Below the pieces are notes generated by a model. That model was not told the DNA's origin and did not search any database. It saw only the letters and a list, made by a program, of their open reading frames with translations. Shown here piece by piece: positions 4,737 through 15,330 of a stretch of DNA of 15,756 nucleotides. Origin of the DNA: a virus. Lineage: Duplodnaviria; Heunggongvirae; Uroviricota; Caudoviricetes. Both the position numbers and the translations under genes were made by a program. The DNA lies in the IMG/VR virus record IMGVR_UViG_2778261543_000003, positions 1 through 15,756 of that record; one strand, given 5' to 3'. The stretch's first letter is position 1. Each line of letters begins with the position of its first letter.

Positions 4737-5036
4737 TCAAATAAGTGGTTTGCTGCCTAATTTCATTTTCTGGCGACCAACACAAGTCACACCCATTTCA
4801 CTGCGTGGCTTGCGGTAGTAAATACGATTCTGTTTACTCTCGACTTCTTCTGCCTTCTTGCAGCGAAGGCTTCCGAGTGATGCTGCTTTGTCTGCTCTGA
4901 CGCAACCAGAGAGCTTTAGCGCATTTTTTCGCGCCAGTCGCTGCTCTTGCATTGCCTGTTCACGTTGAGCCTGTCTGCGTGCTCTGCGGCGATTTCTGGC
5001 GTTATCGTCAGCCAGATATGTAATGACTACTGTCAT
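4737..5036 (-). CDS. N: Antitermination protein N
   Basis: Arg-rich N-terminal motif (DDNARNRRRARRQAQREQ) and C-terminus YYRKPRSEMGVTCVGRQKMKLGSKPLI closely matching the lambda N C-terminus as I recall it; GGAGG 7 nt upstream of the ATG at 5036; nutL lies upstream. Confidence 0.75.
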   Translation of the reverse strand: MTVVITYLADDNARNRRRARRQAQREQAMQEQRLARKNALKLSGCVRADKAASLGSLRCKKAEEVESKQNRIYYRKPRSEMGVTCVGRQKMKLGSKPLI

Positions 5037-5076: not shown

Positions 5077-5196
5077 TTATTTGTTTTTGCGTTCCCACAT
5101 CCAGTCATCTACTTCAGACCAGATAGTGAAACCGAAGCAGATGGCGAATGTGGTAACTAAACCACCGAGAATTGGGTTGGTCATGATGTCTAACAT
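5077..5196 (-). CDS. Small predicted membrane peptide (39 aa, MLDIMTNPILGGLVTTFAICFGFTIWSEVDDWMWERKNK) in the N leader
   Basis: Not in the ORF track. GAGGAA 6 nt upstream of ATG; one hydrophobic helix plus a charged Trp-rich tail; lies between the leader inverted repeat and N. Confidence 0.35.
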   Translation of the reverse strand: MLDIMTNPILGGLVTTFAICFGFTIWSEVDDWMWERKNK

Positions 5197-5367
5197 TTTC
5201 TGTTCCTCAGATGATTAGCTTTGGTGGTGTGGTAGGTGGGAGACCCATTTCGACCCGCTTCGTCCGACTTCAATTCGGCAATAGTCCCGCAGGCCTCGCC
5301 GCTTTACGTGCGACATATTCCCGTCCATGAACCCTTCACCACACCCCAAAGCCAACTACTCTTTGGT

Positions 5368-5408
5368 TCCCGCATTTCGGCGGGACAATCCCATCAATGT
5401 TAAAGAGC
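5368..5408 (-). promoter_or_regulatory. nutL (boxA GCTCTTTAA plus boxB hairpin)
   Basis: Minus-strand GGCTCTTTAACA ... TCCCGC-cgaaau-GCGGGA; the same arrangement occurs on the plus strand at 7082-7125; boxA matches the lambda CGCTCTTA consensus. Confidence 0.6.
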
Positions 5409-5454
5409 CTGCCAATCTGTTCCGTTTGGCTACCAGCGTCCTGCTGATGGCTTA

Positions 5455-5496
5455 AAGATAACTTAGGTTATAGGTGTGGTCAATAACCTAATTTAT
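5455..5496 (-). promoter_or_regulatory. pL promoter with operators OL1/OL2
   Basis: Minus-strand TTGACC (5483-5478), 17-nt spacer, TATCTT (5460-5455); operator ATAACTTAGGTTAT at 5458-5471 overlaps the -10 and ATAACCTAATTTAT at 5483-5496 overlaps the -35. Confidence 0.55.
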
Positions 5497-5660
5497 ATTT
5501 TGTGGTAAATAAGTTATAAGTGATGGATAACAAAGGTATTTTATTTTTGTAAATGTTGCTGATTGATTGGTGTTTGAGGGCTTGCGTGCGGGGTGAAGGT
5601 GTTACCTTTGGCTTGATGCTTGTCTATGATGATGATGGGTGATTGGGTGGTGAACGGCAG

Positions 5661-5695
5661 GAAAAGAAAACCCGGCGCTGAGGCCGGGTGTTTTT
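5661..5695 (-). terminator. Intrinsic terminator ending the cI operon (potentially bidirectional)
   Basis: CCCGGC-gctgag-GCCGGG stem-loop flanked by a T-run on the plus strand and an A-run (U-run on the minus strand); starts right after the stop of the 5694-5990 gene. Confidence 0.7.
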
Positions 5696-5990
5696 AGTCT
5701 TTTCTTTTGCTTAGCATTTCGTCGATTTCTAAGTCAATACGATATTGATCTATTGCTTTTCTCTCGTTTGGGGTTGGTATTTTATATTGTTCAATTAGAT
5801 CTGTTGTGTATTTTATTTCATCTAATGTGATTTTTATATCAGAGAGAATCTCTTTTATATCAATTAGATGCTCTTCTTCTTTTGCGCGATTAGAGCTATG
5901 TTCAATCATTTGAGATAGCTTTTTACTAATGCTTAGCAAAACAAAAAGAATGATGATCAAAACAACAACAAAAACTATCAGAAATTCCAT
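5694..5990 (-). CDS. AT-rich single-pass membrane protein with coiled-coil-like C-terminal region, cotranscribed with cI
   Basis: GGAGGGATA-ATG RBS 40 nt downstream of the cI stop; hydrophobic N-terminus EFLIVFVVVLIIILFVLLSI, then a charged, periodic Ile/Leu segment; followed by a terminator. Confidence 0.7.
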   Translation of the reverse strand: MEFLIVFVVVLIIILFVLLSISKKLSQMIEHSSNRAKEEEHLIDIKEILSDIKITLDEIKYTTDLIEQYKIPTPNERKAIDQYRIDLEIDEMLSKRKD

Positions 5991-6030: not shown

Positions 6031-6738
6031 TTACCAACTATGAGACGACCAGAATACTCTGCCAATAATCCTTACGGTTTCATGAAATTCATCTCTATCC
6101 ATTACTTCATCCGGGTACTCTTCGCGATTTATTGATCTGATTATCACCGATGTAGGGGTGGCGATTAATGTTTTTACTCGTAACAAATCAGACTGGCAAA
6201 TAGCGTAGGTTTTACCATCTCTGATTGTGGTATCTTGCGTGTTAACACCAACAACATCGCCATCGTGAAGCGTTGGTTCCATGCTTTGCCCTACAACCCT
6301 AACTAGCTTGGCTGATCTTTCAGATACTCCCATCTTTTTCAGATAGTGCTTTCTGAAAACCAAAGAGAACTCCGATGATTCCTCTAGCTCGCAGCTACCG
6401 CTTCCAGCTGAAAGCGAAACGTTAAGAAGAGGCAACGCAACAAACTCGTCATCGTTTCTTTTAATGTCTTCCCATACCACAGCTTTTAAAGATGACTCAC
6501 GGACATTGGATGGTTCTTCATGTGCACCATCCCTCATTTCACCAATACCAGAACTAAGCCATTCAGGGCGCACTTTTAAAGCATTGGCTAATTCAACCAT
6601 CTTGCGAGATCCGTTTGTTTTACCGGACGACATCTTCTGTATGGCTGGCTGAGATATTCCAACCATGTCAGCAAGCTGTGATTGTGATACCCCTGCCGAG
6701 CTCATGGCTGCATTTAGTCTTTCTGCGAATGTTTTCAT
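6031..6738 (-). CDS. cI: cI-type repressor (HTH plus S24 LexA-like peptidase domain)
   Basis: HTH SQSQLADMVGISQPAIQKM; S24 signature GQSMEPTLHDGDVVGV and a downstream Lys (LRVKTL). Start taken at MKTF (6738) because the longer track start at 6768 would overlap an operator. Confidence 0.85.
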   Translation of the reverse strand: MKTFAERLNAAMSSAGVSQSQLADMVGISQPAIQKMSSGKTNGSRKMVELANALKVRPEWLSSGIGEMRDGAHEEPSNVRESSLKAVVWEDIKRNDDEFVALPLLNVSLSAGSGSCELEESSEFSLVFRKHYLKKMGVSERSAKLVRVVGQSMEPTLHDGDVVGVNTQDTTIRDGKTYAICQSDLLRVKTLIATPTSVIIRSINREEYPDEVMDRDEFHETVRIIGRVFWSSHSW

Positions 6739-6750
6739 ACCCACAAATCT

Positions 6751-6816
6751 ATAACTACGGTTATCCAAAGTAAAATAACAAAGGTTATTGCTATTTTTTA
6801 TAACTTGAGTTATCTT
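6751..6816 (+). promoter_or_regulatory. OR operator triplet with pR (and divergent pRM) region
   Basis: ATAACTACGGTTAT (6751-6764), ATAACAAAGGTTAT (6775-6788) and ATAACTTGAGTTAT (6800-6813) at 24-25 bp spacing; candidate pR -35 TTGCTA (6788-6793) and -10 TATCTT (6811-6816). Confidence 0.6.
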
Positions 6817-7081: not shown

Positions 7082-7125
7082 CGCTCTTTAACAGTCATGG
7101 TCCTCATTCCCGCCGAAATGCGGGA
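7082..7125 (+). promoter_or_regulatory. nutR (boxA CGCTCTTTA plus boxB hairpin)
   Basis: CGCTCTTTAACA then TTCCCGC-cgaaau-GCGGGAA between cro and cII; inverted counterpart of nutL. Confidence 0.6.
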
Positions 7126-7183: not shown

Positions 7184-7462
7184 ATGCAACTTACAAGTAC
7201 TCGCAAGAAAGCGAATGCAATTACAAGCAACATCCTGAATCGAATTGCTGTACGTGGTCAGCGAAAGGTTGCCGACGCGTTAGGGATTAATGAATCGCAA
7301 ATTTCGCGATGGAAAGACAGCTTCATCCCAAAAATGGGAATGCTTCTGGCTGTTCTTGAATGGGGTGTTGAAGACGAGGAGTTGGCGGAACTGGCTAAGA
7401 AAGTAGCCAGAATGCTGACAAAAGAAAAAGCCCCGAAGAACGGCGAATTCTTCGAGGCCTGA
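7184..7462 (+). CDS. cII: Transcriptional activator cII
   Basis: Strong resemblance to lambda cII as I recall it (ILNRIA, SQISRWK, IPKMGMLLAVLEWGV). Confidence 0.85.
   Translation: MQLTSTRKKANAITSNILNRIAVRGQRKVADALGINESQISRWKDSFIPKMGMLLAVLEWGVEDEELAELAKKVARMLTKEKAPKNGEFFEA
7418..7454 (-). terminator. Minus-strand intrinsic terminator inside the cII 3' end (candidate OOP-like antisense RNA terminator)
   Basis: 7-bp stem CGAAGAA/TTCTTCG (7434-7440 with 7448-7454) followed on the minus strand by GGGCUUUUUCUUUU. Confidence 0.45.
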
Positions 7463-7496
7463 TGTAGAAAGACTGGATCAATCCACAGGAGTAATT

Positions 7497-7658
7497 ATGA
7501 CAAAACGTCGTAAGAAATACCAGGAAAAAGAAGAGATTCGACACCCTGATTCACCTGAGGGATTAGTGGTAGCCGCAGCAAATAACAGGGCGTTCGCAGA
7601 GCGCCTTGTTGGTGTTTACAGACTAGCCAAAGCAGGAGTGAAACATGGGCGTCGTTAA
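7497..7658 (+). CDS. Small basic hypothetical protein (53 aa, MTKRRKKYQEKEEIRHPDSPEG...)
   Basis: AGGAG 5 nt upstream of ATG; its 3' end overlaps the O start by 14 nt; not in the ORF track. Confidence 0.35.
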   Translation: MTKRRKKYQEKEEIRHPDSPEGLVVAAANNRAFAERLVGVYRLAKAGVKHGRR

Positions 7659-12575: not shown

Positions 12576-12650
12576 GGGTCAGTCGTATAAAGGTCATTAC
12601 GGAAGGCTGTTAACCTTCTTATCGTGGTTCGAGTCAACGCTGTCCCGCCA
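12576..12650 (+). tRNA. tRNA-Asn-like (anticodon GUU), possibly degenerate
   Basis: Cloverleaf foldable by hand: anticodon arm GAAGG-CTGTTAA-CCTTC, T-loop TTCGAGT, 3' CCA; but one acceptor mismatch, one T-stem mismatch and an odd D-arm. Confidence 0.4.
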
Positions 12651-12655
12651 AATAT

Positions 12656-12731
12656 GCTGGTTTAGCTCCAATGGTAGAGCAGTCGCCTTGTAAGCGAATG
12701 GGTAGCGGTTCAAGTCCGTTAACCAGCACCA
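12656..12731 (+). tRNA. tRNA-Thr (anticodon UGU)
   Basis: 76 nt; perfect 7-bp acceptor stem GCTGGTT/AACCAGC, D-stem GCTC/GAGC with GG in loop, anticodon loop CTTGTAA, T-loop TTCAAGT, 3' ACCA. Confidence 0.75.
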
Positions 12732-15111: not shown

Positions 15112-15330
15112 CGGCAGTACCGCGAAACAACCCAAGCCAGTAAGTGGGGAAATAACACTGGCAGCCACTGAAAGATGAACCTCCAGCCTTATGGCAAAAA
15201 AGATTCTTTGTGGTGGCGGACTGATGGAAAGACATCGGATAGAATAAAACAGTGGCTAGGGTAGCTCCCGAAAAGCGGAATCGTCACCGCCAGCCACTGA
15301 ATCTATGACGAACAACTAGACGAGGTTGAT

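What the first reader, a model, noticed from the sequence alone, without database searches (positions are those of the whole stretch)
5219..5350. Long imperfect inverted repeat in the N leader: candidate RNase III site or structured regulatory RNA
CTTTGGTGGTGTGGTAGGTGGGAGA (about 5219-5245) and its near reverse complement TTCACCACACCCCAAAGCC (about 5327-5345) flank roughly 80 nt of GC-rich sequence with no convincing ORF. On the pL transcript this predicts a long irregular duplex immediately downstream of nutL. Lambda has an RNase III-processed hairpin in the same relative position that controls N translation. This element is larger and may be an independent structured RNA.
Basis: partly seen in the sequence, partly recalled or inferred. 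Interest (0 to 1): 0.45.

Follow-up and report, generated by a model that had tools for sequence, protein, structure and literature searches.

The report
Lambda-type RNase III hairpin, N leader
The inverted repeat is this prophage's version of the well-known phage lambda leader hairpin that the host enzyme RNase III cuts to control the early regulator N, so it is real and functional-looking but an ordinary member of a known kind.

Summary
The inverted repeat is real. On the minus-strand (pL) transcript it forms a 20-bp stem with one bulged A (5356-5337 pairing with 5234-5214), closing a 102-nt branched interior. It folds better than shuffles (z -3.56) and better than the opposite strand.

It lies just 3' of nutL, whose boxB is identical to the nutR boxB. 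The stem is sequence-homologous to the phage lambda N-leader hairpin, the classical RNase III site, and its 5' arm is the nutL "boxC".

Across 201 lambdoid leaders the stem is nearly universal and covaries strongly: 91.8% of cells paired against 32-44% in slid controls, and 13 of 20 pairs change on both sides. The interior is an exchangeable cassette with at least 34 types. The window's type also occurs in 933W, HK97 and phi80.

I found no coding signal, no Rfam family and no tRNA call for this copy.

- The element is only 14 nt longer than lambda's.
- The first gene after it is a 39-aa membrane-peptide gene (phrog_7482); N follows that.

Verdict: a new member of a known kind; RNase III cleavage is inferred, not shown.

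Side observations: a competing local hairpin, tRNA-like cassette variants, and a P22 sRNA from the same site.

The parts
5455..5483 (-). pL promoter (TTGACC, 17-nt spacer, TATCTT). The transcript start is inferred at about 5448 from alignment with lambda's ATCAGCAGGACGC.
   Evidence: Consensus scan. The pL transcript start sequence is conserved in lambda, 933W, CL707 and HK620. CL707 and HK620 annotate pL and OL at the equivalent place.
5399..5408 (-). nutL boxA (GCUCUUUAAC).
   Evidence: Read from the sequence. HK620, mEpX2 and HK140 records annotate nutL or boxA on the homologous 85%-identical stretch.
5368..5385 (-). nutL boxB hairpin (UCCCGC CGAAAU GCGGGA).
   Evidence: The 16-nt core occurs exactly twice in the window: here and downstream of cro at 7109-7124 (+), which is nutR. 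Chance expectation is 0.1.
5346..5366 (-). Local hairpin 'hp1' (CCAAAG, 9-nt loop, CUUUGG). Its 3' half is also the bottom of the long stem's 5' arm, so the two structures are mutually exclusive.
   Evidence: Across leaders the upstream strand follows the 5' strand: CCAAAC/GUUUGG in 27 leaders, and CCGAAG or CCGAGG with CUUCGG and CCAGAG or CCGGAG with CUCUGG in single leaders. The distal 3' strand does not compensate. hp1 forms in the fold of the predicted 5' cleavage product.
5337..5356 (-). 5' arm of the long stem: flank GUUGG 5356-5352, lower CUUUGG 5351-5346, upper GGUGUGGUG 5345-5337. The run GGGGUGUGGUG (5347-5337) corresponds to the nutL boxC of lambda.
   Evidence: Alignment with lambda, folds, covariation. 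boxC as part of nut sites: PMC2724277.
5235..5336 (-). Interior 'type A' cassette, a branched structure of about 5 short helices. The helix 5295-5289 with 5258-5252 (GGCCUGC/GCGGGUC) is supported by compensatory changes.
   Evidence: MFE fold. In alignment A3, 3 of the 7 pairs of that helix change on both sides. Three other helices are invariant and one is weak. The same cassette is 90-100% identical in 98 phage records and in 498 of 5,426 E. coli genomes.
5214..5234 (-). 3' arm of the long stem: upper UACCACACC 5234-5226, bulged A 5225, lower CCAAAG 5224-5219, flank CUAAU 5218-5214.
   Evidence: Folds and covariation. The bulged purine followed by CC is nearly invariant across 55 distinct stems.
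5077..5208 (-). Shine-Dalgarno GAGGA (5208-5204) and a 39-aa ORF (ATG 5196, stop 5079-5077) encoding a small membrane peptide, MLDIMTNPILGG...WMWERKNK. This is the first cistron after the hairpin.
   Evidence: phrog_7482, E = 8e-25. Six peptide variants, always 39 aa, follow five different cassette types in 9 of 201 leaders. The gene is absent from the phage records searched and is not annotated by PGAP.
4737..5036 (-). N antiterminator gene (99 aa, HK620 type, own SD GGAGG).
   Evidence: phrog_271 'anti-termination protein N-like', E = 2.6e-35. Weak Pfam N_peptide hit. The start context is identical to HK620 N.
5670..5689 (-). tIMM-like terminator ending the cI-side transcript, upstream of pL (context only).
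   Evidence: Terminator scan. Equivalent features are annotated in CL707 and HK620.

Best explanation
The element is the RNase III processing hairpin of the early-left (pL) leader of a lambdoid E. coli prophage. It is homologous to the one in the phage lambda N leader.

Shown here:
- pL fires at about 5448 and transcribes nutL boxA and boxB.
- The GU-rich boxC segment that follows (5356-5337) pairs with a 'trailer' about 100 nt downstream (5234-5214). This gives a 20-bp helix with one bulged A that closes a branched interior.

Inferred from lambda:
- Host RNase III cuts both strands of this helix, at the lambda-equivalent positions between 5346 and 5345 and between 5223 and 5222.
- The cut separates the N/Nus-bound nutL RNA from the downstream message.
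- It leaves a nearly unstructured 5' end about 14 nt before the Shine-Dalgarno sequence.
- Translation of the first cistron is thereby freed from leader structure and from N-mediated repression, and early gene expression becomes coupled to cellular RNase III level.

In this prophage the first cistron is a 39-aa peptide gene, followed by N.

Also inferred:
- The released 5' fragment would refold into a 3'-terminal hairpin (hp1).
- The arrangement copies the rrn leader-trailer helix, in which boxC is held by the antitermination complex and 'delivered' to its complement.
For: Position: the element lies between nutL and the first RBS on the pL transcript.

Homology: the stem is sequence-homologous to lambda's N-leader stem, and the pL start, nut region and RBS spacing are shared.

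Stability: a 20-bp duplex at -32.6 kcal/mol; z -3.56, and 12 kcal/mol more stable on the transcribed strand.

Family-level covariation (55 distinct stems): 91.8% paired against 32-44% slid; 13 of 20 pairs and 178 cells change on both sides; score 0.505 against 0.05-0.13.

Type A covariation: 8 pairs with double changes.

Minimal members of 41 nt keep only the stem, so the stem is the conserved functional core.

Folds of the predicted products: the 5' product ends in boxB plus hp1, and the 3' product is nearly unstructured at -4.4 kcal/mol.

Literature:
- RNase III targets the lambda N leader (Steege 1987, cited in PMC5371410).
- N and Nus factors bound at nutL repress N translation across a highly structured leader, modulated by RNase III (Wilson 1997 and 2002, cited in PMC5725501; PMC8708148).
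- rrn boxC sits in the RNase III leader-trailer helix, with a delivery model (PMC10250234, PMC8632103).
Against: - No cleavage data exist for this element or for its 933W, HK97 or phi80 copies.
- The lambda cleavage positions (+88/+197) are from my memory of Steege 1987 and Wilson 2002. Neither paper could be opened.
- The leaders in alignment A2 were selected by requiring at least 5+5 in-register pairs. This inflates the percentage paired, though not the double changes.
- The lower six pairs are conserved in sequence rather than covarying. Where the 5' strand changes, hp1 compensates and the distal strand does not.
- N is not the adjacent cistron here and has its own strong SD, so lambda's N autoregulation logic may not transfer unchanged.
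- The strongly conserved interior sequence is not explained by a purely stem-based role.
Confidence: 0.78

Rival explanations
1. The hairpin is mainly a container. RNase III (or other nucleases) excises the interior cassette as a discrete stable RNA of about 123 nt with its own trans-acting role, such as a decoy, a tRNA mimic or an sRNA. The conserved stem is only its processing signal. This is not exclusive of the best explanation.
For: - The interior is an exchangeable module: at least 34 unrelated types sit in one conserved stem.
- Type A is 90-100% identical across phages whose nutL, N and immunity differ, including loops and invariant helices.
- In 4 of 171 leaders the hairpin is called a tRNA by ARAGORN, and one of these passes Rfam's tRNA threshold.
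- The stem reads like an acceptor stem followed by A and CC(A).
- A 96-nt sRNA, P22B, comprising the interior plus the 3' arm of P22's gene-24 leader hairpin, accumulates in infected cells (PMC13397905).
Against: - The window's cassette has no tRNA or Rfam match.
- It has no promoter or terminator of its own.
- Some family members have almost no interior, 14 nt beyond the stem.
- High identity between copies may reflect recent mosaic exchange rather than selection.
- P22B's ends do not match RNase III geometry, and no target is known.
Confidence: 0.15
2. The element is a DNA-level feature: a miniature inverted-repeat mobile element, or conserved 'linker' sequences that serve only as recombination joints between mosaic modules.
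For: - Homology blocks end in the arms. The 933W/CL707-type block covers window 5212-5353, and the HK620-type nutL block starts at 5334.
- The element has terminal inverted repeats with a variable interior.
Against: - It is always at one position and in one orientation relative to nutL and the first RBS.
- The median is one copy per E. coli genome that has any.
- Pairing uses G-U and is 12 kcal/mol better on the transcribed strand.
- Compensatory changes maintain pairing with many different sequences, which DNA-level roles do not require.

A recombination-joint role may coexist as a by-product.
Confidence: 0.04
3. The region encodes a small protein: either the 46-aa TTG ORF on the minus strand (5215-5355) or the 55-aa GTG ORF on the plus strand (5236-5403). 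Some phage records annotate a hypothetical protein here.
For: Both ORFs exist. 'Hypothetical protein' and 'proline-rich cell wall protein' annotations lie under the match in a few phage records.
Against: - Stop codons interrupt each frame in close variants: L094 and L081 on the minus strand, L013 and L054 on the plus strand.
- Variable sites show no third-position bias (15/9/16 by codon position), and there is no RBS.
- Relatives replace the interior with unrelated sequences of 41-229 nt.
Confidence: 0.02

Closest known systems
Phage lambda N-leader RNase III site (the hairpin between nutL and the N RBS; Steege et al. 1987; Wilson et al. 1997, 2002)
   Same: - Same place on the pL transcript.
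- The stem sequence is the same apart from the outer flank pairs and the innermost upper pairs: CUUUGGGGUGUG...CACACCACCAAAG with a bulged A.
- Similar distance from the stem to the SD and AUG.
- The pL start and nut layout are shared.
   Different: - The interior is unrelated and 14 nt longer (133 against 119 nt).
- nutL boxB is of another specificity type (HK620-like).
- The cistron directly downstream is a 39-aa peptide gene, not N.
- Cleavage and regulation are untested here.
rrn operon leader-trailer helix containing boxC (the RNase III site that releases pre-16S rRNA)
   Same: - The order is boxA, then a GU-rich boxC forming the 5' strand of a long helix with a distal complement.
- The helix is an RNase III substrate.
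- The antitermination complex can hold boxC for 'delivery' to its complement (PMC10250234, PMC8632103).
   Different: - The rrn helix encloses 1.5 kb of 16S rRNA; this one encloses about 100 nt.
- boxB and boxA are in the opposite order in rrn.
- N protein is involved here.
- The sequences are only loosely similar: UCUGUGUGGG in rrn against GGGGUGUGGUG here.
P22B small RNA of Salmonella phage P22 (PMC13397905)
   Same: It derives from the equivalent hairpin in the gene-24 (N homologue) leader: the interior plus the 3' arm.
   Different: The cassette sequence is different. Its biogenesis and function are uncharacterised, and its ends are not those expected from RNase III.
HK022 put RNA (a cis-acting antiterminator RNA downstream of pL)
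   Same: A structured RNA in the early-left leader of a lambdoid phage.
   Different: put acts directly on RNA polymerase and replaces N and nut. This prophage has N, nutL and nutR, and its stem is homologous to lambda's RNase III site. No put homology was looked for beyond the negative Rfam scan.

Membership tests
Lambda-type N-leader RNase III hairpin | Located on the pL transcript between nutL boxB and the first ribosome-binding site | tested here: met
   pL at 5483-5455, boxA 5408-5399, boxB 5385-5368, stem 5356-5214, SD 5208-5204.
Lambda-type N-leader RNase III hairpin | Sequence homology of the stem arms to the lambda site | tested here: met
   MAFFT alignment with lambda 35360-35582: the lower stem, the bulged A and the first 6 upper pairs are identical.
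Lambda-type N-leader RNase III hairpin | Duplex of about two helical turns (about 20 bp), as RNase III substrates need (established knowledge) | tested here: met
   20 bp plus one bulged A, -32.6 kcal/mol.
Lambda-type N-leader RNase III hairpin | Pairing maintained by compensatory change in relatives | tested here: met
   13 of 20 pairs change on both sides; 91.8% paired against 32-44% in slid controls. Within type A, 8 pairs change on both sides. Caveat: the leaders were pre-selected for at least 5+5 in-register pairs.
Lambda-type N-leader RNase III hairpin | RNase III-dependent cleavage in vivo or in vitro | not testable with these tools
   Needs rnc+ versus rnc- end mapping or cleavage with the purified enzyme.
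Lambda-type N-leader RNase III hairpin | Modulates N translation and N autorepression through nutL | not testable with these tools
   A 39-aa cistron lies between the hairpin and N, so the transfer of lambda's logic is uncertain.
nut-site boxC | GU-rich GGUGUGUG-like motif a short distance 3' of boxB | tested here: met
   GGGGUGUGGUG at 5347-5337, 21 nt after boxB, aligns with lambda nutL GGGGUGUGUG. boxC is described as part of nut sites in PMC2724277.
tRNA or tRNA-like RNA | Cloverleaf with D and T arms recognised by ARAGORN or the Rfam tRNA model | tested here: not met
   No call on the window's leader. Four related leaders with other cassettes are called tRNA.
Any curated Rfam family | Covariance-model match | tested here: not met
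   Nothing at gathering threshold, and nothing in 5205-5365 even at E <= 10.
Miniature inverted-repeat element (MITE, ERIC-like) | Many dispersed copies at unrelated sites | tested here: not met
   Median of 1 copy per positive E. coli genome, maximum 4. Every inspected copy lies between nutL and N.

The most novel reading that the evidence does not exclude
The conserved stem of lambdoid N leaders (boxC arm, acceptor-like GGUGUGG/CCACACC, bulged A, CCA) may be a universal processing 'socket'. It would be evolutionarily or functionally related to a tRNA precursor and to the rrn leader-trailer helix.

Phages would swap dozens of unrelated structured RNA cassettes into this socket. RNase III would excise these as stable RNAs with their own functions. 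Some are tRNA mimics that would end in ...ACC, one A short of a CCA end.

A competing local hairpin (hp1) would cap the released nutL RNA.

The window's type A cassette would then be one uncharacterised member of a large, undescribed class of phage leader-embedded RNAs.
Probability: 0.2. Interest if true: 0.7.

Novelty: new member of a known kind. Interest (0 to 1): 0.35.

Why it matters
For this window, the finding shows that the unannotated 230 nt between pL and the first early-left gene is regulatory RNA: nutL plus an RNase III-type processing stem. It is not a gene, although some phage records annotate hypothetical proteins here.

More broadly, the survey shows three things.
- The lambda N-leader stem is conserved across P22-, 21-, HK620-, 933W- and phi80-type phages, while its interior is freely exchanged.
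- Its two arms are mosaic recombination joints.
- A local hairpin competes for its 5' strand.

These points make the decades-old questions of what boxC does in nut sites, and why the N leader is so structured, testable by comparative mutagenesis. The type A copy sits in Shiga-toxin phages such as 933W, where N level gates toxin-phage induction.

Tried and rejected
- Rfam at gathering threshold and at E <= 10 found nothing on the element.
- A scan for the compensatory variant CTTAGGGG, to match the CCUAAG 3' arms, found none. Those leaders therefore carry a U-U mismatch.
- The single genome-contig scan for type A returned only 3 loci, giving little extra divergence.
- The primary papers and reviews on the lambda site could not be opened: Wilson 1997 and 2002, Court 2013, Bubunenko 2013. 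Two full-text searches for 'N leader' found nothing.
- I followed and dropped the lead that the element might be a known EHEC prophage sRNA. AgvB and AsxR lie at the pR' moron site, and the Pas sRNAs are elsewhere.
- Coding potential was rejected.
- MITE status was rejected.
- A roughly 290-nt insertion seen in L196 and L152 has no Rfam match.

Full report
**Context.** The window is part of a lambdoid E. coli prophage whose early-left operon runs on the minus strand. An almost identical arrangement is in E. coli strain 2313 (98.9% identity over 970 nt). From right to left the region holds:
- a cI-like repressor gene (6031-6768);
- a 98-aa moron (5694-5990, phrog_18389);
- a tIMM-like terminator (5689-5670);
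- a sigma-70 promoter, TTGACC-17-TATCTT, at 5483-5455;
- the pL transcript start sequence CATCAGCAGGACGC, shared with lambda, 933W, CL707 and HK620;
- boxA, GCUCUUUAAC (5408-5399);
- a boxB hairpin (5385-5368).

The 16-nt boxB core recurs exactly once more, downstream of cro at 7109-7124 on the plus strand, preceded by a second boxA. These are therefore nutL and nutR. N (4737-5036) matches phrog_271, 'anti-termination protein N-like', at E = 2.6e-35.

**Observation.** On the pL RNA the pairing is:
- flank GUUGG 5356-5352 with CUAAU 5218-5214;
- lower CUUUGG 5351-5346 with CCAAAG 5224-5219;
- a bulged A at 5225;
- upper GGUGUGGUG 5345-5337 with UACCACACC 5234-5226.

This gives 20 bp at -32.6 kcal/mol. 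The 161-nt region folds at -61.5 kcal/mol on the transcribed strand (z -3.56, 0 of 200 shuffles as stable), against -49.5 kcal/mol on the other strand. The difference comes from G-U pairs that exist only in the pL RNA.

**Identity.** Aligned with lambda 35360-35582, the stem is plainly homologous. Lambda reads GGCUUUGGGGUGUGUG...CACACACCACCAAAGCUAACUGACAGGAGAAUCCAGAUG. The window reads GGCUUUGGGGUGUGGUG...ACCACACCACCAAAGCUAAUCAUCUGAGGAACAGAAAAUG.

This lambda structure is the classical RNase III site of the N leader:
- Steege et al. 1987, cited in PMC5371410;
- Wilson et al. 1997 and 2002, cited in PMC5725501, which summarises that N and Nus factors bound at nutL repress N translation across a 'highly structured' 200-nt leader;
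- PMC8708148.

The GU-rich 5' arm is what the nut literature calls boxC (PMC2724277). No Rfam family covers the element.

**Mosaic structure.** In phage records, the 933W/CL707/HK106/Stx-phage homology block covers window 5212-5353 at 95-97% identity. The HK620/mEpX2/HK140 nutL-pL block covers 5334-5548 at about 85%. The joints therefore fall in the two conserved arms. In 933W and CL707 the block lies between the annotated nutL and the N start codon. The interior alone (5235-5336) is found in 98 phage records, including 933W, HK97, HK106, mEp234 and phi80, and in 498 of 5,426 complete E. coli genomes, with a median of one copy.

**Family survey.** Two pattern scans of IMG/VR anchored on the pL start, together with the phage, E. 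coli and genome-contig loci fetched in other calls, gave 201 leaders.
- In 166 of them the same stem is found in strict register: 6 lower pairs, one bulged purine, and at least 5 upper pairs.
- Most of the other 35 have the stem with a 1x1 internal loop or a shifted register.
- The interiors fall into at least 34 clusters at 70% identity. They range from 14 to 202 nt beyond the first seven upper pairs, for total hairpins of 41-229 nt.

On a gapless alignment of 55 distinct stems:
- 91.8% of cells pair, against 32-44% when partners are slid by 1-3 columns;
- 13 of 20 pairs and 178 cells change on both sides;
- the covariation score is 0.505, against 0.05-0.13 slid and 0.156 shuffled.

The upper stem takes at least 15 different sequences, among them GGUGACG/CGUCACC, GAUUGGAUG/CAUCCAAUC, ACUGGCG/CGCCAGU in P22 and GUUGCAGGUAG/CUAUCUGCAAC. 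The outer flank also covaries. Caveat: selecting leaders by in-register pairing inflates the percentage paired, but it does not create double changes.

The lower six pairs and the bulged A followed by CC are conserved in sequence.

**Within type A.** I aligned nine type A copies from the window, 933W, CL707, phi80, VT2phi272, E. coli CM93, an Enterobacteriaceae isolate and two IMG/VR variants (eight are distinct). Of the 51 MFE pairs, 94.6% hold, and 8 pairs change on both sides against 2-3 in slid controls.
- The interior helix 5295-5289 with 5258-5252 has 3 of its 7 pairs compensated (C-G to U-A, C-G to A-U).
- Three small helices are invariant.
- One helix is poorly supported.

**Not coding.** Each overlapping ORF is broken by a stop codon in close variants. 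Variable sites are spread 15/9/16 over codon positions. Relatives carry unrelated interiors of any length.

**A competing hairpin.** Just 3' of boxB, CCAAAG (5366-5361) can pair with the same CUUUGG (5351-5346) that forms the bottom of the long stem. Across leaders this local hairpin (hp1) follows the 5' strand perfectly:
- CCAAAC with GUUUGG in 27 leaders;
- CCGAAG or CCGAGG with CUUCGG;
- CCAGAG or CCGGAG with CUCUGG.

The distal 3' strand stays CCAAAG or CCCAAG and takes a mismatch. Yet the outer flank of the long stem, which uses hp1's loop, covaries too. Both structures therefore appear to be selected.

My inference depends on the lambda cut sites, which I recall from memory as +88/+197. 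Those positions fall exactly at the boundary between the lower and upper stem, with the expected 2-nt stagger. If that is right, the 5' product ends precisely at the 3' end of hp1. In silico this product folds into boxB plus a terminal hp1, while the 3' product is almost unstructured at -4.4 kcal/mol. hp1 would then cap the released nutL RNA.

**Mechanism.** Shown here: position, homology, stability and covariation. Inferred:
- RNase III cleaves the helix.
- Cleavage uncouples the N/Nus-nutL complex from the downstream message and removes the structure ahead of the SD.
- This sets the translation rate of the first cistron as a function of RNase III level, as in lambda.

The layout (boxA, then boxC forming the 5' strand of a long helix with a distal trailer) parallels the rrn leader-trailer helix. 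There boxC sits in the RNase III stem and is thought to be held by the antitermination complex for delivery to its complement (PMC10250234, PMC8632103).

**A difference from lambda.** Here the stem is followed by SD GAGGA and a 39-aa ORF (5196-5077, phrog_7482, E = 8e-25). The peptide is conserved in six variants, always 39 aa. It follows five different cassette types in 9 of 201 leaders. N follows with its own GGAGG.

**Independent-RNA reading.** This remains open but secondary. In its favour:
- The cassettes are modular.
- Type A is highly conserved, including its loops.
- ARAGORN calls the hairpin a tRNA in 4 of 171 unique leaders, and one of these passes Rfam's tRNA threshold at 34.8 bits.
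- In L026 the conserved stem is the 7-bp acceptor stem GGUGUGG/CCACACC, followed by the bulged A and CC.
- A 2026 study lists a 96-nt sRNA, P22B, that is the interior plus 3' arm of P22's gene-24 leader hairpin (PMC13397905; P22 sequence).

Against it:
- The window's cassette is not tRNA-like.
- It has no transcription signals of its own.
- Some family members have almost no interior.

**Verdict.** This is a genuine, covariation-supported structured RNA. It is best explained as the homologue of lambda's N-leader RNase III site, with a different (933W/HK97/phi80-type) interior. It is a new member of a known kind. The family-wide patterns are the more interesting by-product.

Noticed in passing
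window 5077-5196 (-): An unannotated 39-aa membrane-peptide gene (phrog_7482, function unknown) sits between the leader hairpin and N. The same 39-aa gene follows five different hairpin cassettes in other prophages. It is absent from the 50,697 phage records searched at the DNA level.
   Followed up: partly
L007-L209 (IMG/VR lambdoid leaders), e.g. L134, L030, L012: The interior of the conserved N-leader stem is hypervariable. There are at least 34 unrelated cassette types, 14-202 nt beyond the first seven upper-stem pairs (whole hairpins 41-229 nt). Both arms act as mosaic joints.
   Followed up: partly
L026 691-760, L095 369-450, L178, L182: In four leaders the hairpin is called a tRNA (Leu-UAG or Pro-like). 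The conserved stem serves as the acceptor stem, and the bulged A plus CC serve as discriminator plus CC. L095 passes Rfam's tRNA threshold. T-stem changes between L095 and L178 are compensatory.
   Followed up: partly
window 5346-5366 (-) and the equivalent position in 201 leaders: The local hairpin hp1 competes with the bottom of the long stem and covaries better than the long-range pairing does. It may be a post-cleavage 3' cap for the nutL RNA.
   Followed up: partly
L196 about 7200-7500; L152; also L167, L183, L197: A roughly 290-nt insertion lies between boxB and hp1. It begins with an SD plus a start-stop or 3-codon mini-ORF, followed by GC-rich structured sequence. It has no Rfam match.
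   Followed up: partly
HK620-type and related cassettes (L003, L093, L131, L132, L144, L154, L206): The 3'-proximal hairpin of many short cassettes carries a conserved loop motif, AGAU(A/C)AGCA, on covarying stems. The motif occurs in 8 of 89 unique interiors. Many cassettes begin with UGAAK directly after the stem.
   Followed up: no
window 12576-12647 and 12656-12728 (+); 15249-15311 (+): Two tRNA genes lie in tandem in the late region. There is also an Rfam int-alpA RNA match (42 bits against a gathering score of 35.8).
   Followed up: no
window 5694-5990 (-): A 98-aa predicted membrane protein (phrog_18389, unknown function) occupies the rex position between cI and the tIMM terminator.
   Followed up: no
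L212 (Xanthomonas pisi DSM 18956 contig, 251 bp): A 251-bp contig in a Xanthomonas assembly carries a nutL and N-leader segment whose type A hairpin is identical to that of 933W. It is probably contamination of that assembly.
   Followed up: no
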